A DNA stretch of 64,000 nt from Eubacteriales bacterium (GCA_045593905.1 JAZNXL010000069.1:13355-77354); one strand, 5' to 3'; shown: positions 4,069 to 40,364, numbered from the stretch's first letter. Notes: generated by a model not told the origin, from the letters alone. Numbers and translations: made by a program.

Positions 4069-4095
4069 CAACAATTATTAAACTTTCGGAATATT

Positions 4096-4156
4096 AATGA
4101 ATTGCCTACGGCATTAATTGAGTCTTACGACTGATGAATTGCACCTTTGGCACATT
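4096..4156. repeat. Mini-hairpin array, ATGAATT-linker family (about 3 units)
   Basis: AATGAATT-GCC TAC GGC-ATTAATT-GAGTC TTAC GACT-GATGAATT-GCACCTTTGGCAC-ATT. Same linker plus short GC hairpin units as at 14329-14419, 14801-14886, 22267-22390 and 28266-28373. Confidence 0.55.
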
Positions 4157-4183
4157 AAAAAAGCACCCTTTCGGGTGCTTTTT
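4157..4183. terminator. Rho-independent terminator hairpin (GCACCC TTTC GGGTGC), copy 1 of a recurrent sequence
   Basis: AAAAAAGCACCCTTTCGGGTGCTTTTT, with A-run and T-run on both sides. Confidence 0.7.
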
Positions 4184-4213
4184 AGCTAAATAGTTGCTGA
4201 CGCAACAGCTTTA

Positions 4214-4351
4214 AAGTAAAAGGTAAAAAGTAATAGTGAAAAAGTAATGAAGGAACACAAGAAAAGCTTGTGTTCCTTTTAATTTAAAAAACTCGGCTAA
4301 AAGCCGAGTTTATCCTTAACTATTCACTATTCACTCTTACCTATCACCTAT
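4214..4351 (+). repeat. Composite palindromic intergenic element, copy A (purine heptad arm, hairpin H1, hairpin H2, pyrimidine heptad arm)
   Basis: AAGTAAAAGGTAAAAAGTAATAGTGAAAAAGTAA / GGAACACAAG-loop-CTTGTGTTCC / TTTTAATTTAAAAAA / CTCGGCT-AAA-AGCCGAG / TTTATCCTTAACTATTCACTATTCAC. Alignable with copies at 7847, 18243, 29667 and 40197. Confidence 0.85.
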
Positions 4352-4381
4352 AAAAAAAGCACCCTTTCGGGTGCATTTTTT
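4352..4381 (-). terminator. Rho-independent terminator of the DUF3810-like gene, copy 2 of the GCACCC TTTC GGGTGC hairpin
   Basis: AAAAAAAGCACCCTTTCGGGTGCATTTTTT directly abutting the stop codon at 4380-4382. Confidence 0.75.
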
Positions 4382-5870
4382 AATTAGGATGATATTCTTC
4401 GTAAAGTTCGTCTACTGCGTCTTGATAATCGTAATCAATTTTATAGAAGTTTGTAAGGTAGTTGCAGTATTTACCGTAGTCAACAGGCTCGCTGTCGTCT
4501 ATTCTTACCTTACCCTCATCAACGTTGTCGCGGTATTCAACAAGCAACAGCTTTGCGATGTCGCAAGCCTGTGCTTTTGAGATTGTTTCGTTTGATGCGA
4601 TAAAGCCGATGTCACTTGAAAGACCATACAATTTATCAAGCTCTTTTACAAGCGCTACGTACTCTTTTTTAGCGTCGCTTACAAGCGCGTTTGCAAGGTA
4701 GAGATGAAGGTCTTTACCGTTTGTTTTATAAAACTGTGAGCTGAGTGAAAGGTATGCGTTAAAGTAGCCCGAGTAGTTAAGGTAGTAGTCGTCTGAGTAC
4801 TGGGTGCATACGAGGAATGCGATAAAGTCGGCATCGCCGTCGTCGGTGTAGCCGCGTTGCATTGCCATTGTTTTTGCAACCTGCATAGGCACTACAATTT
4901 CGGGGTAGTAGTTGTTTACGCAAATTTCACCTGTAAAGGGTGAATATATACTCGAGATTTGGAAAGACGAGTAAACACCCGAGAACAAAAGCTCTTTTGA
5001 GTTTAATTTTTTACCCTTGAGTGTGGGGATATCTTTTGCGGCTTTTTTGAACGCTTCGTTTACGCGCTCGGTAATTTTATCGGTTGCTTTACCTTTGCCC
5101 TGATATCTTGAAAGGTTACTCTTTGTGAAAAAGATTTCGCCTGCGCCCTCGTAAAGAGAGTTATTGATGCCGTCGATAAGGTAGAGCATGGTTTCTGAAA
5201 ACTCCATATTTGTTACCTTAGCCGAGGTATATGGTGTTGATTTTGATAAAAAGTTACGGTATGAGAACACGCCGTAGCACATTGACGATAAAAGCGCAAA
5301 CACACCTGCAACAGCAAGCAATGTGTAGCCAAACTGTATCCACAGTCCGCCTTTGCGCACACCGCCTTTAACCTGAATTGTGCGAACTATTATGTACACA
5401 AGGTAAGCAAGTATGCCAAGAGCTGTAGCGCAGATAATAATTTCGAACATAGGGATTGGAATAAGGCTGAATACTTTAGCAATACCGCCCGAAACGCCCC
5501 TGAACGCTTTTGCAAACGACTCACCTGTTGAGCGTGAGCTTGTTGCAATAAAGTAAAGAACTGCGCCAACAATACCTAAAAATATGCACGACCATTTTAC
5601 AATTGACGACCAAAGCGGGTTCATAAGCAAAATTTTTGCTTTTTGACCTTTGGTGAGCGGTTGCTCCTCGTCAGGTGTGTCGATTTGCTCGAGTTCGATT
5701 TCGACCTCTTGCTCATCGGTAGGTGCATCTATATTTTCGAGTTCGTCTTGTTGCTCGATTACTGTATCTTGTGTTATTTCTTCAGTTGCAACTGGTGCTT
5801 CTGACTGAGCCTCTATAACCTCTTGCTCGCCTTCGAGCTCGGGTGTTATATTTTCATAGTTTTCGCTCAT
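4380..5870 (-). CDS. DUF3810-like membrane protein with acidic N-terminal extension; metallopeptidase-like motif degenerate
   Basis: The segment YSPFTGEICVNN...VAKTMAMQRGYTDDGDADFIAFLVC...YSGYF aligns, from memory, to the DUF3810 core, where HExxH normally sits (here KTMAM). Three to four TM helices. The first ~75 aa are Glu/Asp/Gln-rich. Confidence 0.6.
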   Translation of the reverse strand: MSENYENITPELEGEQEVIEAQSEAPVATEEITQDTVIEQQDELENIDAPTDEQEVEIELEQIDTPDEEQPLTKGQKAKILLMNPLWSSIVKWSCIFLGIVGAVLYFIATSSRSTGESFAKAFRGVSGGIAKVFSLIPIPMFEIIICATALGILAYLVYIIVRTIQVKGGVRKGGLWIQFGYTLLAVAGVFALLSSMCYGVFSYRNFLSKSTPYTSAKVTNMEFSETMLYLIDGINNSLYEGAGEIFFTKSNLSRYQGKGKATDKITERVNEAFKKAAKDIPTLKGKKLNSKELLFSGVYSSFQISSIYSPFTGEICVNNYYPEIVVPMQVAKTMAMQRGYTDDGDADFIAFLVCTQYSDDYYLNYSGYFNAYLSLSSQFYKTNGKDLHLYLANALVSDAKKEYVALVKELDKLYGLSSDIGFIASNETISKAQACDIAKLLLVEYRDNVDEGKVRIDDSEPVDYGKYCNYLTNFYKIDYDYQDAVDELYEEYHPN

Positions 5871-7813: not shown

Positions 7814-7844
7814 AAAAATGGCGGTTTTAAACCGCCATTTTTTA
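7814..7844 (+). terminator. Rho-independent terminator of fba
   Basis: AATGGCGGTTT / AAACCGCCATT stem followed by a T-run. Confidence 0.8.
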
Positions 7845-7846
7845 TT

Positions 7847-7983
7847 TAGGTAATAGGTAAGAGTGAATAGTGAATAGATTAGGACAAAACTCGGCTTAAA
7901 GCCGAGTTTTATAAATTAAAAGGAACACAACCAAAGTTGTGTTCCCTCGTTACCTTTTCACTATTACTTTTTACTTATTACCT
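7847..7983 (-). repeat. Composite palindromic intergenic element, copy B (inverted orientation)
   Basis: Reverse complement aligns with copies A, C and E. H2 is CTCGGCT-TAA-AGCCGAG; H1 is GGAACACAAC-CAAA-GTTGTGTTCC. Heptad arms on both sides. Confidence 0.85.
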
Positions 7984-7987
7984 AAAT

Positions 7988-8018
7988 AAAAAAAGCAGTC
8001 TTTCGACTGCTTATTTTT
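7988..8018 (-). terminator. Rho-independent terminator of rplS
   Basis: GCAGTC TTTC GACTGC hairpin with a T-run on the minus strand, 2 nt after the rplS stop. Confidence 0.75.
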
Positions 8019-14315: not shown

Positions 14316-14328
14316 ATACACTTCGTGT

Positions 14329-14419
14329 AATGAATTGCACCTTGCAATTCAATTCATTGAGCGAAAAGCGAAAATTCATGGCGACAGCCAATTCATTGAG
14401 CGCTAAGCGAAAATTCATT
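14329..14419. repeat. Mini-hairpin array upstream of the four-helix-bundle gene (AATTCATT orientation, 4-5 units)
   Basis: AATGAATTGCACCTTGC then AATTCATT-GAGCGAAAAGCGAA, AATTCAT-GGCGACAGCC, AATTCATT-GAGCGCTAAGCGAA, AATTCATT. The linker is the reverse complement of the one in the 14801-14886 array. Confidence 0.7.
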
Positions 14420-14445: not shown

Positions 14446-14805
14446 ATGAAAGAAAACAAACTTATAGATTTATCAAAGCAGTTTGCTATTGACGTTATAA
14501 CCCTTTGCAACAAAACAAAAGAGGCTAAAAAAGGCAGTGTTCTCATAAACCAGTTACTGCGATGCGGTACAAGTGTTGGTGCAAATATACATGAAGCCAA
14601 CTATGCATCAAGCAAATCTGACTTTATAAACAAACTGCAAATCGCATTAAAAGAGTGCTACGAAACTGATTATTGGTTGGAAATTTTTAACGAAACAAAA
14701 ATTATTTCCGAGCAGGAATTTACATCCCTATATAACAACTGTAGCAGAATAAGAAAAATACTTATCGCATCAATAACGACTGCGAAAAATAATAATTCAC
14801 AATGA
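14446..14805 (+). CDS. Four-helix-bundle protein (23S rRNA intervening-sequence protein / Avd-like family)
   Basis: 119 aa, all-helical, with the family pattern LLRCGTSVGANIHEANYASSKSDFINKLQIALKECYETDYWLEI. Confidence 0.8.
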   Translation: MKENKLIDLSKQFAIDVITLCNKTKEAKKGSVLINQLLRCGTSVGANIHEANYASSKSDFINKLQIALKECYETDYWLEIFNETKIISEQEFTSLYNNCSRIRKILIASITTAKNNNSQ

Positions 14806-14886
14806 ATTGCACCTTGCGGTGCATGAATTGTACCTTGCGACACAATGAATTGCACCTTGCGGCGCATGAATTGTGCTTCGCACATT
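14801..14886. repeat. Mini-hairpin array downstream of the four-helix-bundle gene (AATGAATT orientation, 4 units of ~22 nt)
   Basis: AATGAATT-GCACC TTGC GGTGC / ATGAATT-GTACCTTGCGACAC / AATGAATT-GCACC TTGC GGCGC / ATGAATT-GTGC TTC GCAC-ATT. The CDS stop TGA (14803-14805) lies inside the first linker. Confidence 0.75.
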
Positions 14887-14907
14887 ATACTTTAAGGAGA
14901 ATTATAT

Positions 14908-17999: not shown

Positions 18000-18242
18000 A
18001 TGAGAATTGATAAATACTTAAAAGTATCACGACTTATAAAAAGGCGCACCGTTGCGCAGGAGGCTTGCGACGGCGGCAGAGTAAGTGTTGGCGGCAAGGT
18101 TGTAAAGCCTTCGTACGACGTTAAAGAGGGCGATATTATTGAGCTTTCTTTCGGCGCTAAAAAAACAAAGGTAAAGGTTACAAAGGTATGCGACTTTATT
18201 AAGGCTAACGAAGCCGATACCATGTACGAACTGCTAAATTAG
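18000..18242 (+). CDS. yabO: S4-domain RNA-binding protein (YabO/RqcP, Hsp15-like)
   Basis: 80 aa starting MRIDKYLKVSRLIKRRTVA, with conserved position after mazG-hup. The longer track ORF from 17691 is an out-of-frame run through hup. Confidence 0.8.
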   Translation: MRIDKYLKVSRLIKRRTVAQEACDGGRVSVGGKVVKPSYDVKEGDIIELSFGAKKTKVKVTKVCDFIKANEADTMYELLN

Positions 18243-18379
18243 TAAGTAATAAGTAAAAAGTAATAGTGAAAAAGTAACGTGGGAACGCAACTTTGGTTGC
18301 GTTCCTTTTAATTAAAAAAACTCGGCTTTTAGCCGAGTTTTCTCCTTACCTATTCACTATTACCTATTACCTATTACTT
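18243..18379 (+). repeat. Composite palindromic intergenic element, copy C
   Basis: Begins immediately after the yabO stop. Arms are in 7-nt register (AGTAAGT AATAAGT AAAAAGT AATAGTG ... TATTCAC TATTACC TATTACC TATTACT). H1 is GGAACGCAAC-TTTG-GTTGCGTTCC; H2 is CTCGGCT-TTT-AGCCGAG. Confidence 0.88.
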
Positions 18380-18380
18380 T

Positions 18381-18409
18381 AAAAAAGCACCCTTTCGGGT
18401 GCTTTTTTT
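18381..18409. terminator. Rho-independent terminator, copy 3 of the GCACCC TTTC GGGTGC hairpin
   Basis: AAAAAAGCACCCTTTCGGGTGCTTTTTTT abutting the stop of the minus-strand gene at 18408. Confidence 0.75.
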
Positions 18410-19439
18410 ATTCTTCTACAATGAACGCGTTGGGTATAAACCTCATACCGTCGGCATCCGAGCCGGAGGGTCGGTTTACAATCTCGTCGTTATACGACAT
18501 AACAGTTGACGAGCCGCCGTCGAGGTTGGCTGCGTTATAGCATTTTTGCTCAATCATAATCTCTTGAAGCTGTTTCATATTAACACCCATTGAGTAACCG
18601 GGCTGTCTGCCATCAACAACAACAAACACAACGGTGCCGTCTTTACGCTGGCCAATAGCAGTACGGGGTGCCACACCCCAGCCGCCGTTGCCTTTGATTT
18701 TTGCAGGCTCGCCGTTAATAATTAAAAACGGAGTAAACTCAACCGCATCGCGAAGCTTAAGGTCTTTAAGCTCGTACGCTTTATAGTTACCAAGAACGAG
18801 TACGTCGTCCTCGTTAAAGCCGATTATATTGTAATATTCTTCTTTGGGGTAGTTAAGTACGTCGCCGTCGCAAACGCAATAGCCCATAACAATACCGCCG
18901 TTACCCCAGCCTGCCGCGTCACCAAAGCCGCCTGCGTTAATGCCCGCTATTGCTTTAGGATAGTTTTGCAAAAGATACGGCATTTTTTGACCCTTTACGC
19001 CAAAGTACTTTGAAATACCAAGCTTTACTTTTGACGGGTCAGATACCTCGAGCATCCACGCCTTGTAACCGTCTTTGCTAATTTCGGTAAGCTTTGTATA
19101 CGCCTCTTCTTTTTGGTCTTTGTCGGTTTTTACAGCCTCGGTATCGGTTACCGATTCAAGCTCTTCAACCACGTTGCTTTCCATAACCGCTTTTATAGTT
19201 TCTTCGCTATAAAATATACGTGATATGTACTTGTGGCTGATGGTAGTTTCGGTTGAGGTTATCATAAACACCCTGAAGGTGTCGATAGGACCGTAGAGCA
19301 GTGCAAGGCTGACAATACCGAGCGTAAGCCAGGTCGCAAGCATTGACAAAACAAACTTACCAAGCGGGTCTTTTACAAACTTTTTAAATACCCATAAAAA
19401 GCCGTTTGTATTCTTTTTTGTGGTGCGGGGGTTGTTCAT
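18408..19439 (-). CDS. Phosphodiester glycosidase family protein (NAGPA/DUF2233-like), N-terminal membrane anchor
   Basis: NAGGFGD and ANLDGGSSTVM motifs; one TM helix near the N-terminus. Confidence 0.7.
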   Translation of the reverse strand: MNNPRTTKKNTNGFLWVFKKFVKDPLGKFVLSMLATWLTLGIVSLALLYGPIDTFRVFMITSTETTISHKYISRIFYSEETIKAVMESNVVEELESVTDTEAVKTDKDQKEEAYTKLTEISKDGYKAWMLEVSDPSKVKLGISKYFGVKGQKMPYLLQNYPKAIAGINAGGFGDAAGWGNGGIVMGYCVCDGDVLNYPKEEYYNIIGFNEDDVLVLGNYKAYELKDLKLRDAVEFTPFLIINGEPAKIKGNGGWGVAPRTAIGQRKDGTVVFVVVDGRQPGYSMGVNMKQLQEIMIEQKCYNAANLDGGSSTVMSYNDEIVNRPSGSDADGMRFIPNAFIVEE

Positions 19440-22249: not shown

Positions 22250-22266
22250 ACTAAGCCTTTCGTAAC

Positions 22267-22390
22267 GTGCATCAGCACATTTCATGCATCCTAGATGCAT
22301 TTAATGAGTCAACAGCTCATTTCATGCCGTAGGCATTTCATTAAATTAAATGATGCCATGCATCATGAAATGACAACGCGTTGTCATTTT
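22267..22390. repeat. Mini-hairpin array, ATTTCAT/ATGAAAT-linker family (6 units)
   Basis: GTGC ATCA GCAC-ATTTCAT-GCATC CTA GATGC-ATTTAAT-GAG TCAACAG CTC-ATTTCAT-GCC GTA GGC-ATTTCATTAAATTAAAT-GATGC CAT GCATC-ATGAAAT-GACAAC GC GTTGTC-ATTTT. The last hairpin overlaps the stop of the upstream gene. Confidence 0.75.
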
Positions 22391-26146: not shown

Positions 26147-26634
26147 TTTGCCGCCTCCTTTAAAGATTCAATAATTGAAATTGCCTTTTGCGGAGTTAAG
26201 CTGCCGTATGTTTCGCCGTTTATCATCATAACGGGCGAAAGTGAGCAACAGCCAAGGCAGGCAACGTCTTTTAAAGTAAAGAGTCCGTCGTCGGTTGTTT
26301 CGCCGTCGGCAATTCCAAGATGCTCGCAGATTGCGCTTTCAATACGCTCTGAGCCGTTTACGTGACAGGCTGTGCCCTGGCAAAGCATTATAAGGTACTT
26401 GCCAACAGGTTTTAGCCTGAACTGTGTATAAAAGGTTGCAACGCCCATAACCTCGGCGGGTGTAGAGCCTGTTTTATGCGCAATGTGATATATTACATCA
26501 GTAGGAAGATAGCCGTAAATATCTTGCGCTTTTTGTAAAATTGTAATAAGACTTCCCTTTACCGATGCGTACTCGTTTAAAACGCCGTCAAGCAAAGTAA
26601 GGTCGCTGTTATTTGAGCAACAACAATTTGACAT
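26137..26634 (-). CDS. NuoE/HydC-like 2Fe-2S thioredoxin-fold subunit
   Basis: CQGTACHVNG ... CLGCCSLSPV cysteine pattern, 165 aa. Overlaps the NuoF-like start by 10 nt. Confidence 0.88.
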   Translation of the reverse strand: MSNCCCSNNSDLTLLDGVLNEYASVKGSLITILQKAQDIYGYLPTDVIYHIAHKTGSTPAEVMGVATFYTQFRLKPVGKYLIMLCQGTACHVNGSERIESAICEHLGIADGETTDDGLFTLKDVACLGCCSLSPVMMINGETYGSLTPQKAISIIESLKEAAKCE

Positions 26635-26912
26635 AATATCCTTCTCCTCTTTGATTTGTCTATATAATTTTACATTATTGTATAACCTGTGTCAATTGTG
26701 GTTTTATGACATTTTGTAAAAACCCCTGTCCTTGCTTTCGTTAAATTAAATAAATCGCGAATAATTTTTTAGTGATTTTTAACCAATGTTAACACATTTT
26801 ATTTTTTTTGATTTTTTTATTGATTTTTGTATATTATAGTGCTAAAATAAACTCATAATTTCACAAACGGCGGACACTTGTCCACCGCTTGAGCACAAGG
26901 AGAAAGAGAATT

Positions 26913-28265
26913 ATGAGTTTTAAGAACGAGTATTTACAGGGCGTAATGGACAAAGTAATCGCCCGCAACCCCGGTGAGCCGGAGTTTCATCAGGCAGTAG
27001 AAGAGGTTTTAGTTTCACTTGAGCCTGTTGTTGAAATGCACCCCGAGTACATTGAGCAGGGCGTTATTGACAGAATTGTTGAGCCCGAAAGACAAATCTT
27101 TTTCAGAGTACCGTGGGTTGACGACAACGGCAAGGTACAGGTAAACCGCGGCTTTAGAATTCAGTTTAACTCGGCAATCGGTCCTTACAAGGGCGGTCTT
27201 AGATTCCACCCGTCAGTAAACCCCTCAATTATGAAGTTTTTGGGCTTTGAGCAAACATTCAAAAACAGCCTTACAGGTCTTCCTATCGGCGGCGGTAAGG
27301 GTGGTTCTGACTTTGACCCCAGAGGCCGTTCAAACGGCGAGATTATGAGATTTTGCCAAAGCTTTATGACCGAGCTTTACCGTCACATCGGCTCACACGT
27401 TGACGTGCCCGCAGGTGACATTGGCGTTGGTGCAAGAGAAATCGGCTACCTCTTTGGTCAGTACAAAAGAATTTGCAATAACTACGAAAACGCAGTTTTA
27501 ACAGGCAAAGGCCTTTCATACGGCGGCAGCCTTATCCGTCCCGAAGCTACAGGCTTTGGCGCTACATATTTCTGTAACGAAGTGCTTAAAAAATGGGGCG
27601 AAGACTTTAGGGGCAAAACCTTTGCAGTATCGGGCTTTGGTAACGTTGCCTGGGGCGCTGTGCTCAAAATCAACGAGCTTGGCGGTAAGGTACTTACAAT
27701 TTCAGGTCCCGACGGCTACATATACGACGAAAACGGCGTAACCGCTGACAAAGCAGCGTATATGCTCGAAATGCGTGCATCAGGTCGCGACAAGGTTCAA
27801 GACTACGCTGACAAGTTCGGTGTTAAGTTTGTTGCAGGCAAAAAGCCTTGGGAAGTTAAGGTTGATGTTGCTATGCCTTGCGCAACACAAAACGAGGTTG
27901 GTCTTGAAGACGCTAAAAACATTGTTGCAAACGGCACAAAATTCTACATTGAGGTTGCTAACATGCCTACCACAAAAGAGGCTGTTGACTACTTTGTTGC
28001 AAACGGCGTTGTTGTTGCTCCTTCAAAGGCAGTTAACGCAGGCGGCGTTGCAGTTTCAGCTCTTGAAATGTCACAAAACAGTATGCGTCTTTCGTGGACT
28101 GCAGAAGAAGTTGACCAAAAGCTTAAAGCTATTATGGTTAACATCTTTAACGCAGCATACGACACCGCTGAAAAATACGGTCAAAAGGGCAATCTTATTA
28201 TGGGCGCTAACATTGCAGGCTTTGAAAAGGTTGCAGAGGCAACTCTCGCTCACGGCATTGTTTAA
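26913..28265 (+). CDS. gdhA: NADP-type glutamate dehydrogenase
   Basis: KGGLRFHPSV and GGGKGGSDFDP motifs. Start at ATG 26913 after AAGGAGAAAG. Confidence 0.93.
   Translation: MSFKNEYLQGVMDKVIARNPGEPEFHQAVEEVLVSLEPVVEMHPEYIEQGVIDRIVEPERQIFFRVPWVDDNGKVQVNRGFRIQFNSAIGPYKGGLRFHPSVNPSIMKFLGFEQTFKNSLTGLPIGGGKGGSDFDPRGRSNGEIMRFCQSFMTELYRHIGSHVDVPAGDIGVGAREIGYLFGQYKRICNNYENAVLTGKGLSYGGSLIRPEATGFGATYFCNEVLKKWGEDFRGKTFAVSGFGNVAWGAVLKINELGGKVLTISGPDGYIYDENGVTADKAAYMLEMRASGRDKVQDYADKFGVKFVAGKKPWEVKVDVAMPCATQNEVGLEDAKNIVANGTKFYIEVANMPTTKEAVDYFVANGVVVAPSKAVNAGGVAVSALEMSQNSMRLSWTAEEVDQKLKAIMVNIFNAAYDTAEKYGQKGNLIMGANIAGFEKVAEATLAHGIV
28192..28265 (+). repeat. Direct repeat copy 1 (functional 3' end of gdhA)
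   Basis: 74 nt, 72/74 identical to 29589-29662. Confidence 0.95.
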
Positions 28266-28373
28266 TGAAATGCCTTACGGCGTTTCATTTAATGGCAAAA
28301 GCCATTTCATTTTGCAAAGCATCATTTCATTTAATCTATACGCCCTACGGCATGAAATGTGCTAACACACATT
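28266..28373. repeat. Mini-hairpin array, ATGAAAT-linker family (about 5 units)
   Basis: ATGAAATGCC TTAC GGCGTTTCAT-TTAATGGC AAAA GCCATT-TCATTTTGC AAA GCA-TCATTTCATTTAATCTATAC-GCC CTAC GGC-ATGAAATGTG CTAACA CACATT, starting at the nucleotide after the gdhA stop. Confidence 0.7.
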
Positions 28374-28404
28374 AAAAAAACGCACCCTTCGGGGTGCTTT
28401 TTTT
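28374..28404 (+). terminator. Rho-independent terminator, variant copy 4 of the GCACCC hairpin
   Basis: AAAAAAACGCACCCTTCGGGGTGCTTTTTTT. Confidence 0.75.
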
Positions 28405-28462
28405 ATTGCAAAAATTATTTATTTATAATATAATTATATTGTAAAACAGAGCATACGGTAAC

Positions 28463-28705
28463 ATGGTTGACATAGCCTTGTCAAAAGGTGCATACTGCGC
28501 TGTAGGATGGTGTAACGAAGCATTTGATGATGTAATGAATTGCTGGGTAGGTGATTTTTTTGACAAATGCACGGAGGGTGCAACGGTCGAAAATGCTATA
28601 GATTTTGCTGACAGCGCAATTAGTAATAGTTCAAAATATTCTGCCTATTATTCTTCGGTAATAAACAGATATTACGGCAGTAGTCCTTATTCCAGCTTGT
28701 ACTAG
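28463..28705 (+). CDS. Hypothetical 80-aa Cys/Trp/Tyr-rich protein, possibly a C-terminal gene remnant
   Basis: The ORF lies in the AT-rich insert. The frame is closed by a stop only 18 nt upstream of the ATG, no clear ribosome-binding site was seen, and no family was recognised. Confidence 0.3.
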   Translation: MVDIALSKGAYCAVGWCNEAFDDVMNCWVGDFFDKCTEGATVENAIDFADSAISNSSKYSAYYSSVINRYYGSSPYSSLY

Positions 28706-28735
28706 GCGGAACCAATTAGAAAGGAGTACTCTGAT

Positions 28736-29581
28736 ATGAATAAAAAGAAAAGTTTAATTATAATAATTTTTATTTTAGTTATTGCTTTAATATTTAGCAT
28801 ATCCTCATTAGCTATCGTTAACTCAGACATATTTGAAGCAAATATTTTTAACAATAAAATTCAGCGTACTAATGCAGAAAAAACCAAGGTGTTTTCAATT
28901 GATAACGGAGTTGAAAAGCAATTAACTTATAAAGAAACTCAAAATTACAGCGCAAGCAATTATGTAGATATTTATGAAGACTCAGAGAAAAATCAATATC
29001 GTTATGATAATCAAGAAAATCTTATAGGCTATATAAACAATAACATTGATGATAAGCTCGAATCTCAGATAATTGACGACAAAGCTCTTGACAGCAGAAT
29101 TTCTCAGGACGAAGCTATCAGCATTGCAACTGCCTATGCTCAAAAAATGTACCAAAACACTTTTGATGATTTTAACTATTCAAGCTCATTATATGCCGAG
29201 CACTCAAATCTTTATAATATACACTTCAACGTCACTGCAGGAAAAGATAAACAAATATCCGTAGCTACATGTTATGTCGGTGTGTATTTAAGCGGAAAAG
29301 TAGCATCATGCAATATGCCGACGTGGTATGAAAAAAGTAAAATTGATTTCAATAAACTTAACAGAATCTCAAAAAGCGACTTAGAAAAATTTGCAGATAA
29401 TGAAGCAAAAGAAATATATGGAAATGATTTTGTAAATTGTTACGTATATGAAGAAGTAGGCGCTTTTTTAACCGCGAAAGACAACAGTTTTGTTGTTGCT
29501 GTACCAATAATTGTAACATTAAAAAATATCAACGGTGACAATTATGATATGGTAAAAGAACTGTATTATGAATTCACATAA
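28736..29581 (+). CDS. Hypothetical secreted or membrane-anchored protein (281 aa), AT-rich foreign composition
   Basis: AGGAG ribosome-binding site (28721-28725), and an N-terminal Lys-rich plus hydrophobic signal/anchor. Two internal segments (SQDEAISIATAYAQKMY, SKSDLEKFADNEAKEIYG) recall PepSY-type domain starts; this assignment is weak. Confidence 0.6.
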   Translation: MNKKKSLIIIIFILVIALIFSISSLAIVNSDIFEANIFNNKIQRTNAEKTKVFSIDNGVEKQLTYKETQNYSASNYVDIYEDSEKNQYRYDNQENLIGYINNNIDDKLESQIIDDKALDSRISQDEAISIATAYAQKMYQNTFDDFNYSSSLYAEHSNLYNIHFNVTAGKDKQISVATCYVGVYLSGKVASCNMPTWYEKSKIDFNKLNRISKSDLEKFADNEAKEIYGNDFVNCYVYEEVGAFLTAKDNSFVVAVPIIVTLKNINGDNYDMVKELYYEFT

Positions 29582-29588
29582 CAACAGT

Positions 29589-29662
29589 ATCTTATTATGG
29601 GCGCTAACATTGCAGGCTTTGAAAAGGTTGCAGAGGCAACTCTCGCTCACGGAATAGTTTAA
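29589..29662 (+). pseudogene. Orphan duplicate of the gdhA 3' end (direct repeat copy 2)
   Basis: Encodes LIMGANIAGFEKVAEATLAHGIV-stop in the gdhA frame. The two differences from copy 1 are synonymous (GGC/GGA, ATT/ATA). No upstream coding continuation. Confidence 0.9.
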
Positions 29663-29666
29663 AAAT

Positions 29667-29746
29667 TAGTAAGTAATATCTAAGAAGTAATAGTGAAAAA
29701 GTAATGATGAAACACGGCTTTTGCCGTGTTTCTTTTTATTTTTTAT
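29667..29746 (+). repeat. Composite palindromic intergenic element, copy D (truncated: left arm plus H1 only)
   Basis: TAGTAAGTAATATCTAAGAAGTAATAGTGAAAAAGTAATGAT then H1 GAAACACGGC-TTTT-GCCGTGTTTC and a T-run. H2 and the right arm are absent. Confidence 0.75.
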
Positions 29747-29806
29747 TGAAAAATCTATTAATATATACTATAATTTAATTTTCAAAATAATTATAGAGGT
29801 AAAAAT

Positions 29807-30505
29807 ATGACTAACGAGTTATTACTTATATTAAGCATAGTTGTAATATACGGCTCGGTGCTATTGTTTTATAAGCTGTTTAAAACGGCAGGGCTTTATT
29901 GCTGGATGGCGTTTGCCACCGTTGTTGCCAACATTGAGGTGGTAATTCTGGTAAACGCGTTTGGCATTGAGCAAACACTCGGCAACGTGCTTTTTGCATC
30001 TACCTTTGTTGTAACCGACATACTGTCGGAGACCGAGGGTAAAAAACAATCGACAAAGGCGGTATGGCTTGGCTTTTCAATATCGGCGGTGTTTATTGTG
30101 CTTTCGCAGATGTGGACTTGGTTTATCCCCTCACAAAACGACTTTGCGCACGGCGCTATTGTTACAATATTTAAAAACACACCTCGGCTTATGGCGTCGT
30201 CGCTTTTGGTGTTTGCAATATCGCAGCTTTTCGACGTGTTTTTATACCACGCGATATGGAAAAAAACCACCGAGGCAACGGGCGACAGCAAAAAGCTTTT
30301 ATGGGTAAGAAACAACGTTGCCACAATGCTGTCGCAGCTTTTAAACGCGGTTTGCTACAACCTTTTGGCGTTTGGCGGCATTTATAGCAGTAAAACGCTG
30401 TTTAGCATAATTTTAGCAAGCTTTTTAATATCAATTGTAACAAGCATTTGCGACACACCTGTAGTATACATTGCAAGAAGGATACATCAAAATGAAAATA
30501 AATAA
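29807..30505 (+). CDS. VUT/YhhQ-family (DUF165) queuosine-precursor transporter-like membrane protein
   Basis: 232 aa, 6 TM helices, with family-typical N-terminal region (AFATVVANIEVVILVNAFG...FASTFVVTDILSE). Confidence 0.7.
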   Translation: MTNELLLILSIVVIYGSVLLFYKLFKTAGLYCWMAFATVVANIEVVILVNAFGIEQTLGNVLFASTFVVTDILSETEGKKQSTKAVWLGFSISAVFIVLSQMWTWFIPSQNDFAHGAIVTIFKNTPRLMASSLLVFAISQLFDVFLYHAIWKKTTEATGDSKKLLWVRNNVATMLSQLLNAVCYNLLAFGGIYSSKTLFSIILASFLISIVTSICDTPVVYIARRIHQNENK

Positions 30506-31139
30506 CGTTTTATTTGACCTTGACGGTACGCTGACCGACCCAAAGGTAGGAATTACAAAATCGGCGGCATACGCGCTTTCAAGGTTCGGGATACAAAAAG
30601 ACCCCGACGAGCTTTTGCATTTTATCGGTCCGCCGCTTGCGGTATCGTTTAAAAACTGCTACGGCTTTAACGATGCCGAGTGCGACGAGGCTATAAAATA
30701 TTACCGCGAGTATTTTAGTGTTACAGGCAAGTTTGAAAACCAGCTTTACCCCTACACCTTTAAAATGCTTGACCACCTTAAAGCGAGCGGTAAAAAGCTA
30801 TACATTGCTACCTCAAAGCCGGAGCTTTTTGCAATAGAAATTGCAAAGCATTTTGGCTTTTTTGACTACTTTGAAAAAATACACGGCATAGCAATGGGCG
30901 AAGAGCGTATTGAAAAAGACGTTGTTATAAAACGGCTTTTAAACGAGCATAAAATCGCGCCCTGCGATGCGATTATGGTGGGCGACAGGTGCTTTGATAT
31001 TTACGGCGCACACAAATGCGGTGTAAAGGCGGTCGGCGTGTTGTTCGGCTACGGCGACAGGAGGGAGCATACCGATGCAGATGCCGACTTTATTGTTAAT
31101 ACCAACCGCGACCTGTTTGAGTTTATGAAAGGAATATAA
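30492..31139 (+). CDS. HAD-superfamily phosphatase (phosphoglycolate phosphatase-like)
   Basis: Motif I VLFDLDGTLTD; motif III/IV K...GDRCFDI. Start at ATG 30492, overlapping the end of the previous gene. Confidence 0.8.
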   Translation: MKINNVLFDLDGTLTDPKVGITKSAAYALSRFGIQKDPDELLHFIGPPLAVSFKNCYGFNDAECDEAIKYYREYFSVTGKFENQLYPYTFKMLDHLKASGKKLYIATSKPELFAIEIAKHFGFFDYFEKIHGIAMGEERIEKDVVIKRLLNEHKIAPCDAIMVGDRCFDIYGAHKCGVKAVGVLFGYGDRREHTDADADFIVNTNRDLFEFMKGI

Positions 31140-39229: not shown

Positions 39230-40196
39230 AAGCTTTTTAAAGCTACTTGATTTTACACCCCAAGAGATTAATTACCTGCTCGATTTATCAGCCGAGCTCA
39301 AGGCTAAAAAGAAACAGGGTATCCCCCACCGCTTATGCGAGGGCAAGTCTATTGCCTTGGTGTTTGAAAAAACAAGCACCCGTACACGCTGTGCGTTTGA
39401 GGTGGCTGCTGCCGACCTTGGTATGCACCCCACCTACCTTGACCCGTCAGGCTCACAGATTGGTAAAAAAGAGAGCATTGCCGACACCGCGCGAGTGCTC
39501 GGACGTATGTTTGACGGCATTGAGTACCGCGGCTTTGGTCAGGAGATTGTTGAAGAGCTTGCCGCATACGCAGGCGTGCCGGTTTGGAACGGACTTACCA
39601 ACGAGTTCCACCCCACCCAGATTCTTGCCGACTTTTTAACAATTAAAGAGCACACAGGCAAGCTTGAGGGCTCAAAGCTTGTGTATATGGGCGATGCAAG
39701 ATATAATATGGGCAACTCGTATATGGTGGGCTGCGCTAAAATGGGTATGCACTTTGTTGCCTGCGCGCCAAAGGAGTTTTTCCCCGACCAAAAGCTTATT
39801 GACGAGTGCCAAAAAATTGCTAAAGAAACAGGCGCAACACTCGAGTTTTGCGAGGACGTTGACTTAGCCGTTAAGGGCGCTGATATTATTTGCACTGACG
39901 TGTGGGTATCAATGGGCGAGCCGGATAGCGTTTGGCAAGAGCGAATCGAAAAGCTTTCGCCCTACCGCGTTACAATGGAGGTTATGAAAAAAGCAGGCGA
40001 CAACACCAAGTTTATGCACTGCCTGCCTGCCTTCCACGATGTTAAAACCACCATCGGCAAAGAGATTTATAATAAGTTCGGTATCGACTGTATGGAGGTT
40101 ACCGACGAGGTTTTTGAGAGCGAGCGCTCAATAGTATTTGACGAAGCCGAAAACCGTATGCACACTATTAAGGCAGTAATGTGCGCTACGCTTTGA
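39213..40196 (+). CDS. argF: Ornithine carbamoyltransferase
   Basis: STRTR, HPTQ and HCLP motifs. Confidence 0.93.
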
Positions 40197-40330
40197 GGTA
40201 AAAAGTAATAGTGAAAAGTGAAAAAGTAACGAAAGAACACAACCTTGGTTGTGTTCTTTTTAATTAAAAAACTCGGCTTTCAGCCGAGTTTTATCCTTAC
40301 CTATTCACTATTACCTATTACTTATTCACT
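40197..40330 (+). repeat. Composite palindromic intergenic element, copy E
   Basis: Starts at the nucleotide after the argF stop. H1 is AGAACACAAC-CTTG-GTTGTGTTCT; H2 is CTCGGCT-TTC-AGCCGAG. Heptad arms on both sides. Confidence 0.88.
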
Positions 40331-40334
40331 AAAT

Positions 40335-40364
40335 AAAAAAGCAGCCTCTAAAGGCTGTTTTTTA
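40335..40364 (-). terminator. Rho-independent terminator of argH (hairpin overlaps the argH stop)
   Basis: AACAGCCT TTAG AGGCTGCTT followed by a T-run on the minus strand. Confidence 0.7.

What the first reader, a model, noticed from the sequence alone, without database searches (positions are those of the whole stretch)
28192..29662. A 74-bp direct repeat of the gdhA 3' end brackets a 1.4-kb AT-rich insertion
Positions 28192-28265 (the last 23 codons plus stop of gdhA) recur at 29589-29662 with 72/74 identity. Both differences are synonymous in the gdhA frame (GGC/GGA Gly, ATT/ATA Ile), so the orphan copy still encodes LIMGANIAGFEKVAEATLAHGIV-stop. Between the copies lie a mini-hairpin array, a terminator and two ORFs of clearly lower GC than the flanks. 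The offset between copies is 1397 bp.

This is the signature of an element that integrated into the 3' end of a gene and brought a replacement 3' end (att-like duplication). No recombinase is present, however, and the segment is much smaller than typical integrative islands. The orphan copy is followed by a truncated composite element (29667-29746), which probably served as the original gdhA terminator.
Basis: seen in the sequence. Interest (0 to 1): 0.65.

Follow-up and report, generated by a model that had tools for sequence, protein, structure and literature searches.

The report
Recombination scar duplicating the gdhA end
A gut Clostridia strain carries a 1.1-kb piece of foreign DNA between its glutamate dehydrogenase gene and the next gene, flanked by two copies of the last 74 bases of that gene; it looks like an ordinary recombination scar, not a new mobile element.

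Summary
The 74-bp repeat is real: 28192-28265 and 29589-29662 match at 72/74, and both differences are synonymous. The insertion is also real. Two sister-species contigs (L082, L083) and one same-species contig (run X19) run from gdhA straight into the yhhQ (Vut_1) region with no cargo and a single gdhA end.

Only 28452-29584 is foreign. It is AT-rich and 84% identical to one ENA contig (L001), where the first ORF is the tail of a longer gene. The cargo is therefore a 5'-truncated gene stub plus one intact 281-aa membrane-anchored ORF.

The hairpin array, terminator and promoter at 28266-28451 are native-type DNA, found at the empty sites of relatives. What is duplicated is a module: gdhA 3' end, terminator and yhhQ promoter. 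The two copies look like different alleles.

I found no recombinase, no terminal inverted repeats and no gdhA repeat at the only other copy of the cassette. The best reading is insertion-duplication, or orphan 3'-end displacement, by general recombination. The cargo is now decaying.

The left junction is confirmed in four independent metagenomes. The right junction and the orphan copy rest on this contig alone. Interest is low to moderate.

The parts
26913..28265 (+). gdhA (NADP-type glutamate dehydrogenase), intact
   Evidence: Pfam ELFV_dehydrog_N and ELFV_dehydrog, E 1e-53 to 1e-84. 97% aa identity to P0004 and P0005.
28192..28265 (+). Copy A of the 74-bp repeat: the working 3' end of gdhA (GGC ATT GTT TAA)
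   Evidence: Logan contigs of X1, X7, X8, X9, X13 and X25 run from gdhA through this copy into the A-type tail.
28266..28376 (+). A-type tail, part 1: mini-hairpin array (28266-28359, bounded by TGAAATG at both ends) plus a small hairpin (28356-28373). This is native-type DNA, not cargo.
   Evidence: Near-identical array directly after the gdhA stop at the empty site of L082. The 87-bp array is absent in X1 and X7 (joint 28272>28377). RNA fold z = -8.4.
28382..28404 (+). Terminator A (GCACCCTTCGGGGTGC plus T-run), a member of a dispersed terminator family
   Evidence: The same hairpin precedes the yhhQ promoter in L083. Family copies near 4163, 4359, 18387 and 63131.
28406..28434 (+). Promoter A (TTGCAA-17-TATAAT), a second copy of the yhhQ promoter, now facing the cargo
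   Evidence: Its best local matches in all DNA held are the yhhQ promoters of L083 (score 54), window copy B (49) and L082 (45), against a background of 39 or less.
28452..29588 (+). Foreign core (cargo). Left junction J1 = 28451|28452. Homology to L001 ends at 29584. Right junction J2 = 29588|29589.
   Evidence: blastn: window 28452-29584 = L001 458-1591, 84.2% identity, 1 gap. GC 0.32 and GC3 0.26 versus 0.46-0.51 in neighbouring genes. J1 is crossed by contigs of X1, X6 and X8; X7 shows the same array-less A-type tail only as far as 28417. J2 is seen only in this contig.
28463..28705 (+). ORF80': 5'-truncated, prematurely stopped remnant of a longer gene (L001 ORF of at least 179 aa); no convincing RBS
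   Evidence: 73% aa identity to the C-terminal 80 aa of L001:187-726. Strain SNPs: 7 nonsynonymous (one a stop) and 0 synonymous within the coding codons, plus one stop-codon change TAG>TAA.
28736..29581 (+). ORF281: intact, N-terminal TM helix, weak DUF4901/PepSY-like; own RBS (AAAGGAG)
   Evidence: One close homologue (P0002, 79%). A profile search finds 136 distant relatives of about 280 aa, of which 7/38 weakly match DUF4901. omega 0.22 versus L001, but 13 nonsynonymous to 4 synonymous SNPs among strains.
29589..29662 (+). Copy B of the 74-bp repeat: orphan gdhA 3' end (GGA ATA GTT TAA) with no start codon
   Evidence: The ATA variant is linked to the same downstream sequence in the X19 empty allele.
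29663..29732 (+). B-type tail: truncated 'composite element' (AAGTAAT-repeat arm, 29663-29708) plus terminator B (29709-29732)
   Evidence: Family copies at 4206-4386, 7838-7990 (-), 18236-18411 and 40188-40340. Terminator. The same hairpin is at the L082 empty site. It follows gdhA directly in X19. Fold z = -4.2.
29746..29774 (+). Promoter B (TTGAAA-17-TATAAT), the working yhhQ promoter
29807..30505 (+). yhhQ/Vut_1, queuosine-precursor transporter; the first gene downstream, overlapped at its 3' end by a HAD phosphatase gene
   Evidence: Pfam Vut_1 3.6e-37. TIGR00697 6.5e-41.

Best explanation
This is an insertion-duplication scar made by general recombination, not by a dedicated integrase. 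DNA from a related lineage carried three things in a row: a gdhA 3' end; an 'A-type' downstream region (hairpin array, GCACCC terminator, yhhQ-type promoter); and a 1.13-kb AT-rich fragment of a foreign two-gene cassette already fused to that promoter.

This DNA recombined with a chromosome that had a 'B-type' gdhA downstream region. The simplest route is a single crossover, inside the last 74 bp of gdhA, between the chromosome and a small circularised fragment (Campbell-type). An equivalent route is a homology-anchored event whose other end joined illegitimately 74 bp upstream of the gdhA stop.

Either way, the incoming 3' end now completes gdhA. The resident 3' end, with its own terminator and the yhhQ promoter, was pushed 1.4 kb downstream as an orphan. 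Because terminator and promoter exist on both sides, gdhA and yhhQ-HAD keep their signals, and promoter A can drive ORF281.

Shown: the repeat, the empty alleles, the foreign origin and truncation of the cargo, the native origin of the 28266-28451 segment, the left junction in other samples, and relaxed selection on the cargo. Inferred: the circular or linear intermediate, the order of the two illegitimate joints (J1, J2), and the direction of transfer.
For: 1. Empty alleles, colinear on both sides, exist in sister species at 85-88% nt identity (L082, L083) and in the same species (X19).
2. The cargo is a gene fragment, not an element. ORF80' is the C-terminal 80 aa of an ORF of at least 179 aa in L001.
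3. The cargo is compositionally foreign in both hosts (GC3 0.26-0.32 versus 0.46-0.54). It is also far more similar between hosts than the adjacent HAD gene (dS 0.49 versus 1.4).
4. Segment 28266-28451 is orthologous to empty-site DNA of L082 and L083.
5. The two module copies behave like alleles from different lineages. The coding 74 bp is 97% identical with only synonymous differences. The promoters are only 76% identical and are no closer to each other than to L083 (82-84%). The ATA variant plus the B-type tail occurs as an intact gdhA end in X19. The A-type tail occurs as an intact gdhA end in X9, X13, X25 and L082.
6. The locus is a recombination hot spot. HAD has dS 0.83 between L082 and L083, against 0.06-0.12 for its neighbours. 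yhhQ is absent in L084.
7. No recombinase gene lies in the insert or in the flanks, which are colinear with the relatives for about 8 kb on the left and about 7 kb on the right.
8. Precedent: recircularised fragments integrating by a single crossover gave 109-950-bp duplications of the homologous locus far more often than HFIR proper (PMC3240628). Orphan 3' gene ends that keep a piece of the conserved upstream coding sequence are explained this way in T6SS and rhs loci (PMC5361080, PMC3967940).
Against: - The right junction J2 and the orphan copy were not seen in any public run.
- Several Logan contigs run from gdhA through the 74 bp without a break. That is unexpected if a second copy were present at detectable depth, though tip clipping at 2-5x depth could explain it.
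- Two illegitimate joints (J1 and J2) are needed, so at least one earlier event in a donor must be assumed.
- Seventy-four bp is short for RecA-dependent crossover.
- Microhomology at the joints cannot be judged, because the true donor is unknown; L001 is only 84% identical.
- The hairpin and terminator modules turn over so fast between strains that are about 99% identical that their difference between copies A and B is weak evidence for separate origin. The promoter argument rests on only 50 nt.
- The X19 allele could be a secondary deletion by recombination between the two copies rather than the pre-insertion state.
Confidence: 0.45

Rival explanations
1. In-situ replicative rearrangement. 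During replication or break repair, the nascent strand left the yhhQ promoter region at 28451. It copied 1.13 kb from foreign DNA present in the cell, then switched back 260 bp upstream, at 28192. This made module-cargo-module in one step (template switching, or a tandem duplication with captured filler). The two module copies later diverged through the rapid turnover of hairpin and terminator modules and through allelic recombination on the right side.
For: - One event creates both junctions J1 and J2.
- The duplicated unit (gdhA 3' end to just past the -10 box) is contiguous native DNA.
- Array and terminator modules demonstrably change between near-identical strains: the array is absent in X1 and X7, another terminator precedes promoter B in X1, and the terminator loop is flipped in X6.
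- X6 contig 6 joins an array plus hairpin directly to terminator B and promoter B. If X6 holds one strain, this means copy B still carries the array there, as a fresh duplication would.
Against: - Promoters A and B are 76% identical, while the orphan 74 bp, which is free to drift, is 97% identical to copy A. Gene conversion limited to the 74 bp would be needed.
- The ATA variant is linked to the B-type tail in an independent empty allele (X19).
- No microhomology is evident at J1 or J2 using L001 as a proxy for the donor.
Confidence: 0.2
2. Decayed site-specific integrative element (CIME-like). An island with an integrase once integrated into the 3' end of gdhA, using the 74 bp as its attachment site and supplying a replacement 3' end. 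Internal deletions later removed the integrase and most genes, leaving the right-end 1.1 kb between attL and attR.
For: - Direct repeats that include a housekeeping gene's 3' end, an intact gene and a displaced orphan form the classic pattern.
- The same cassette lies immediately upstream of the orthologous HAD gene in a distant lineage. L001 HAD is 83% aa identical to L084 HAD, and L084 has gdhA directly followed by HAD. This hints at a preferred slot.
- The X19 allele equals the product of precise excision.
- CIMEs are defined as att-flanked elements that have lost their integration and transfer genes (PMC6323972).
Against: - DNA immediately right of 'attL' (array, terminator, yhhQ-type promoter) is native-type and is present at the empty sites of L082 and L083. 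It should be element DNA.
- L001 has no gdhA-like fragment between ORF281 and HAD.
- There is no integrase, excisionase or relaxase in the window flanks.
- Viral contigs gave no hit to the cargo or to an orphan gdhA end.
- ORF179 and ORF281 have almost no close relatives, so there is no sign of a spreading element.
Confidence: 0.12
3. Assembly mis-threading. The reads come from an empty chromosome (gdhA followed by the B-type tail) plus a separate molecule or strain in which the cargo is joined to a gdhA end followed by the A-type tail. That second form could be a 1.4-kb circle, a tandem array or a second strain. The assembler then threaded one pass of the cycle through the shared 64 bp.
For: - The right junction and the linkage from the cargo to copy B to the B-type tail are seen only in this contig.
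- The first 64 bp of the repeat are identical, so short k-mers cannot phase it.
Against: - Contigs of X1, X7, X8, X9 and X25 link gdhA upstream sequence through the 74 bp to the A-type tail. In X1 the same contig continues through promoter A into the cargo; in X7 it ends at 28417. This is the threading used in the window.
- The junction k-mers for J2 must exist in the source reads for any de Bruijn assembler to emit them.
- Related assemblies of this kind were built with k = 141, which spans 64 bp. That this applies to the window's own assembly is an inference.
Confidence: 0.08

Closest known systems
Insertion-duplication by single crossover of a circular or recircularised fragment (Campbell-type integration; experimental example in E. 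coli conjugation, PMC3240628)
   Same: The topology is homology-insert-homology. The duplicated segment equals the chromosomal homology carried by the insert (109-950 bp in the experiments). No dedicated recombinase is needed. The product can revert by recombination between the repeats.
   Different: The homology here is only 74 bp, or about 200-255 bp if the diverged terminator and promoter are counted. The event is natural, in an uncultured gut Clostridia lineage. The intermediate was not observed. The insert already carried an illegitimate joint (J1).
Homology-facilitated illegitimate recombination and displacement of orphan 3' gene ends in rhs, cdiA and T6SS effector loci (PMC5361080, PMC3967940, PMC3240628)
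   Same: A new 3' end plus downstream cargo arrives next to a conserved gene. The resident 3' end is pushed downstream and keeps a stretch of the conserved coding sequence but no start codon. The copies in one genome are not each other's closest relatives.
   Different: gdhA is a housekeeping gene with no polymorphic toxin tip, and the two 3' ends encode the same peptide. There is no immunity-gene logic or selective rationale. Only one orphan is present. Classical HFIR usually deletes recipient DNA rather than duplicating it.
Genomic islands, ICEs/IMEs and CIMEs integrated in the 3' end of a gene with att duplication (definition in PMC6323972)
   Same: Direct repeats include the 3' end of a conserved gene. 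The gene remains intact. The DNA between the repeats is AT-rich.
   Different: No integrase is present. Part of the DNA between the repeats is native. The cassette's other occurrence lacks the repeat. At 1.4 kb it is far smaller than known elements.

Membership tests
Site-specific integrative element or CIME | Direct repeats (attL/attR) bound the element and include the target gene's 3' end | tested here: met
   72/74 repeat at 28192-28265 and 29589-29662.
Site-specific integrative element or CIME | All DNA between the repeats belongs to the element and is absent from empty sites | tested here: not met
   Segment 28266-28359 is orthologous to L082 4896-5007, and 28381-28444 to L083 8525-8588, at empty sites.
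Site-specific integrative element or CIME | A tyrosine or serine recombinase in the element (ICE, IME, prophage), or a cognate integrase-bearing element using the same att site (CIME) | tested here: not met
   The insert holds only ORF80' and ORF281, with no recombinase family hit. The flanks are colinear with L082 and L083 core genes. Viral-contig scans gave 0 hits. A cognate element elsewhere cannot be excluded.
Site-specific integrative element or CIME | Other copies of the element are bounded by the same repeat | tested here: not met
   The only other copy (L001) has ORF281, a terminator, a promoter and HAD, with no gdhA fragment. Its left end is off the contig, and n = 1.
Site-specific integrative element or CIME | Precise excision giving a circle and an empty site | not testable with these tools
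   Only Logan contigs were available, not raw reads of this organism. The X19 allele is compatible with excision but equally with the ancestral state.
Insertion-duplication (single crossover, Campbell-type) | Homology-insert-homology topology, with an empty allele that lacks both the insert and the second copy | tested here: met
Insertion-duplication (single crossover, Campbell-type) | The two homology copies derive from two parental molecules | tested here: inconclusive
   The A-type and B-type tails each occur as intact gdhA ends in other samples, and the ATA variant is linked to the B-type tail. The promoters are 76% identical against 82-84% to the outgroup. Against this, only 50 nt are compared and the modules turn over fast.
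Insertion-duplication (single crossover, Campbell-type) | A circular intermediate | not testable with these tools
   No raw reads of this organism were available. The runs X41 and X42 held host DNA only.
HFIR / orphan 3'-end displacement | The orphan fragment keeps part of the conserved coding region and lacks a start | tested here: met
   Copy B encodes the last 23 codons plus the stop, preceded by the ORF281 stop and 7 nt.
HFIR / orphan 3'-end displacement | 3-10-bp microhomology at the illegitimate joint | tested here: inconclusive
   Homology to L001 ends at 28452 and about 29584, and homology to gdhA starts exactly at 29589. The true donor is unknown.
Transposon, IS or MITE with target-site duplication | Terminal inverted repeats, a transposase, and a short fixed-length target duplication | tested here: not met
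   There are no inverted repeats at the ends of 28266-29588 or 28452-29588, and no transposase. A 74-bp duplication is far longer than typical target-site duplications.

The most novel reading that the evidence does not exclude
The 74 bp at the end of gdhA, or the gdhA-HAD slot more broadly, is the attachment site of an as yet undescribed integrative element family of gut Oscillospirales. The ORF179-ORF281 cassette is that family's right end, and the window holds a CIME-like remnant that a resident element could still mobilise. A second, less likely variant is that the hypervariable mini-hairpin and terminator modules at this site belong to an active ssDNA-type (REP/RAYT- or IS200-like) system that captured the cargo.
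Probability: 0.1. Interest if true: 0.55.

Novelty: new member of a known kind. Interest (0 to 1): 0.3.

Why it matters
The finding gives a clean natural example, in an uncultured gut Clostridia lineage, of foreign DNA fixed next to a housekeeping gene without any mobile-element machinery. The resident gene end, terminator and downstream promoter were duplicated, so neither neighbour lost its expression signals. It shows that an 'att-like' repeat of a gene's 3' end is not enough to call an integrative element. The practical lesson for annotation is to check whether the DNA beside the repeat is present at empty sites. Biologically the cargo appears to be a decaying passenger, so the functional impact is probably small.

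Tried and rejected
- A genome-contig scan with gdhA found at best 79% aa identity and no shared neighbours, so it gave no usable empty site.
- Exact look-ups of the window's gdhA and ORF281 were not on record.
- A metagenome-contig scan with a degenerate 32-nt core of the repeat gave 0 hits.
- Viral contigs gave nothing for ORF281 or for a degenerate gdhA 3'-end pattern.
- Rfam gave no match above the gathering score in 26500-30200. There were only terminator-like sub-threshold hits and no preQ1 riboswitch before yhhQ.
- The raw-read runs X41 (Nanopore) and X42 (Hi-C) held host DNA only.
- I looked for the right junction in 16 runs and in the word index and found nothing.
- I tested whether promoter A derives from the promoter downstream of ORF281 in L001, which would suggest a circular permutation of the donor locus. 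The similarity is at background level (score 31 versus 45-54 for the yhhQ promoters), so I rejected the idea.
- ORF179 has only a CHAT/caspase-like hint at E = 0.14 and no homologues beyond itself. I do not name it.
- The AlphaFold model of ORF281 has pLDDT 44.7, too poor for a fold search. The profile found no solved relative.
- The RNA run X2 has contigs over the cargo that start at 28449, just downstream of promoter A. However, depth is flat across all genes, so this may be DNA. I do not count it as evidence of transcription.
Full report
**Observation**

The repeat is exactly as described. Positions 28192-28265 and 29589-29662 are 74 nt, identical at 72 positions and offset by 1397 bp. Copy A is the end of an intact glutamate dehydrogenase gene (26913-28265; Pfam ELFV_dehydrog). 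Both differences are synonymous: GGC/GGA and ATT/ATA. In a self-comparison of the whole window it is the only long direct repeat of coding DNA. GC falls to 0.25-0.36 between the copies.

**Empty sites exist**

The organism has no close relative among the GTDB species representatives. The best gdhA match there is 79% aa, with no shared neighbours. A protein search found two gdhA proteins at 97% identity. Their contigs are L082 (ENA ERZ27297753) and L083 (ENA ERZ27236872). Both carry the same gene order as the window: NuoF-NuoE on the minus strand, then gdhA, Vut_1, HAD, Tex and PK. Neither has the two ORFs or a second gdhA end.

blastn shows colinearity at 85-88% identity on both sides, with dS of 0.4-0.5. 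These are therefore sister species. Within the window's own species, a Logan contig from run X19 reads 79 nt of gdhA identical to the window, then the 74 bp (GGC ATA GTT TAA), then 29663-29744.

**What is foreign and what is not**

ORF281 has a single close homologue among 5.8 billion proteins (P0002, 79%). It lies on a 2.2-kb ENA contig, L001. The window matches L001 only over 28452-29584, at 84.2% identity with one gap. In L001 the window's 80-aa ORF is the C-terminal part of an ORF of at least 179 aa. The cargo is therefore a 5'-truncated gene stub, also prematurely stopped, plus one intact gene.

The stretch between copy A and 28451 is not cargo:
- The hairpin array at 28266-28359 is nearly identical to the array directly after the gdhA stop at the empty site of L082.
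- The terminator GCACCCTTCGGGGTGC, the T-run and the promoter (28381-28444) are 87.5% identical to the terminator and yhhQ promoter of L083.
- The best local matches of 28398-28451 anywhere in the DNA held are the three yhhQ promoters.

So the duplicated unit is a module of gdhA 3' end, variable hairpin part, terminator and yhhQ promoter. Copy A spans about 28192-28447 and copy B about 29589-29790. The foreign core sits between the end of copy A and the start of copy B.

**The cargo**

The cargo is AT-rich in both hosts: GC3 is 0.26-0.32, against 0.46-0.54 for the core genes. L001's HAD gene is 83% aa identical to the HAD that directly follows gdhA in L084 (NCBI GCA_054284405.1), a relative that lacks yhhQ. 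It is only 58% identical to the window's HAD. ORF281 has dS 0.49 between the window and L001, while HAD has dS 1.4. The cassette therefore moved between lineages after they split. Intriguingly, it sits just upstream of the orthologous HAD in both.

ORF281 has a TM helix and a weak DUF4901/PepSY-like signal. A profile search finds 136 distant relatives of about 280 aa. ORF179 has no relatives. Among Logan contigs of about 99%-identical strains, SNPs in ORF281 are 13 nonsynonymous to 4 synonymous. In the stub they are 7 nonsynonymous, one of them a stop, to 0 synonymous. Selection is therefore relaxed in this species, although omega is 0.22 over the longer window-L001 divergence.

**Independent support for the junctions**

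The left junction (28451|28452) is crossed by contigs of X1, X6 and X8. In X1 and X7 one contig links gdhA, the 74 bp and the A-type tail. Only the X1 contig continues into the cargo (to 28511). The X7 contig ends at 28417. Both lack the 87-bp array.

The right junction (29588|29589) and the orphan copy were not seen in any run. Cargo contigs stop at or before 29555. Low depth (2-5x), an AT-rich stretch and tip clipping at the repeat in k = 31 graphs are plausible reasons. Even so, this part rests on the window contig alone. A de Bruijn assembler cannot invent the junction k-mers. The realistic artefact is therefore mis-threading through the shared 64 bp, and the X1/X7/X8/X9/X25 contigs argue against that.

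**How it arose**

No recombinase, transposase or terminal inverted repeat is present. The flanks are core genes colinear with the relatives.

The two module copies look like different alleles rather than a fresh duplicate:
- The coding 74 bp is 97% identical, with only synonymous changes.
- The promoters are 76% identical and no closer to each other than to L083 (82-84%).
- The ATA variant with the B-type tail is an intact gdhA end in X19.
- The A-type tail is an intact gdhA end in X9, X13, X25 and L082.

The locus is recombination-prone. HAD has dS 0.83 between L082 and L083, whose neighbouring genes differ by 0.06-0.12.

I therefore favour insertion-duplication by general recombination. DNA from a related lineage, carrying a gdhA end, the A-type tail, promoter A and the cargo, recombined within the last 74 bp of gdhA of a B-type chromosome. 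Most simply this was a recircularised fragment integrating by a single crossover. That outcome dominated over classical HFIR in experiments and produced 109-950-bp duplications (PMC3240628). The result has the same form as the displaced orphan 3' ends of rhs and T6SS effector genes (PMC5361080, PMC3967940).

Weak points:
- Two illegitimate joints are needed.
- Seventy-four bp is a short substrate.
- The hairpin and terminator modules change so quickly between strains that their difference between the copies carries little weight. Examples are array loss in X1 and X7, a different terminator before promoter B in X1, and a flipped terminator loop in X6.
- X19 could be a secondary deletion between the repeats.

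**Rivals**

In-situ template switching followed by allelic exchange (0.2) makes both joints at once. It needs gene conversion confined to the 74 bp to explain 97% versus 76% identity. A decayed site-specific element (0.12) fits the repeat and the shared slot. It fails on the native DNA beside 'attL' and on L001, which has no gdhA fragment next to ORF281. Mis-threaded assembly (0.08) remains open only for the right side.

**Comparison and verdict**

The structure works like Campbell-type insertion-duplication or orphan-end displacement. It is not a member of the att-flanked integrative elements: two defining features were tested and not met. I rate it a new member of a known kind and of modest interest (0.3). 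The most novel reading not excluded is an unrecognised element family targeting the gdhA end or the gdhA-HAD slot (about 0.1).

The hypervariable mini-hairpin arrays and swappable terminator modules at this and other intergenic sites seem more unusual than the repeat itself. They are listed under things noticed in passing.

Noticed in passing
window 4094-4150, 14326-14418, 14797-14890, 22258-22385, 28266-28376; L082 4896-5010; L083 8350-8525: Dispersed intergenic arrays of mini-hairpins. The stems are GC-rich and variable with 3-4-nt loops, and are joined by a conserved 6-8-nt linker (TGAATTG/CAATTCA type or GAAATG/CATTTC type). At the gdhA site the array type differs between the close sister contigs L082 and L083. 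In run X6 the array carries extra sequence (about 21 nt in one contig, about 40 nt in another). An 87-bp array bounded by the 7-bp direct repeat TGAAATG is absent in X1 and X7. This is REP- or MITE-like behaviour; I did not look for a cognate transposase.
   Followed up: partly
window 4206-4386, 7838-8015 (-), 18236-18411, 40188-40340, truncated copy 29663-29741: A family of 'composite' palindromic elements about 180 bp long. Each has an AAGTAAT-repeat arm, two terminator-like hairpins, the reverse-complement ATTACTT-repeat arm, and usually a GCACCCTTTCGGGTGC terminator. Two start within a few bases of a gene's stop codon: right after the TAA at 29660-29662, and around a TAG at 18238-18240.
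   Followed up: partly
window 28382-28397 and 29709-29732; Logan contigs of X1, X6; L082 5012-5035; L083 8526-8541: The terminator hairpin just upstream of the yhhQ promoter is swapped like a cassette between close relatives. L082 has the GAAACACGG type and L083 the GCACCC type, although their promoters differ at only 2-3 positions. X1 has a third hairpin (GAACTGCCGCTTGGCAGTTC). X6 has the GAAACACGG stem with an inverted loop, AAAA instead of TTTT.
   Followed up: partly
window 14446-14805 (+): A 119-aa 'four helix bundle protein' gene (TIGR02436, E 7e-30; the family first seen in 23S rRNA intervening sequences) is flanked on both sides by mini-hairpin arrays.
   Followed up: partly
window 30492-31139; L082 5794-6441; L083 9295-9939: The HAD phosphatase gene downstream of yhhQ is strikingly mosaic. 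Between L082 and L083 it has dS 0.83 and dN 0.18, while gdhA, yhhQ and Tex on either side have dS 0.06-0.12. This indicates allele import at this locus.
   Followed up: no
L084 5357-5512 (NCBI GCA_054284405.1, JAZTCQ010000076.1): In a relative with 87% aa gdhA identity, gdhA is followed directly by HAD-Tex-PK with no yhhQ. The gdhA-HAD slot therefore holds different cargo in different lineages: nothing, yhhQ, ORF179-ORF281, or both a cassette fragment and yhhQ in the window.
   Followed up: partly
L085 1303-2997 (ENA ERZ28593851 scaffold_13382): A 564-aa gdhA-like protein (P0006), about 110 aa longer than normal, lies on a 4-kb contig next to an HTH gene. It may be a fusion or a mis-call.
   Followed up: no
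window 28449 onward; RNA-seq run X2: Contigs from an RNA-seq library begin at 28449, a few bases downstream of the -10 box of promoter A, and cover the cargo to 29180. Depth is as flat as over gdhA, so DNA carry-over cannot be excluded.
   Followed up: no
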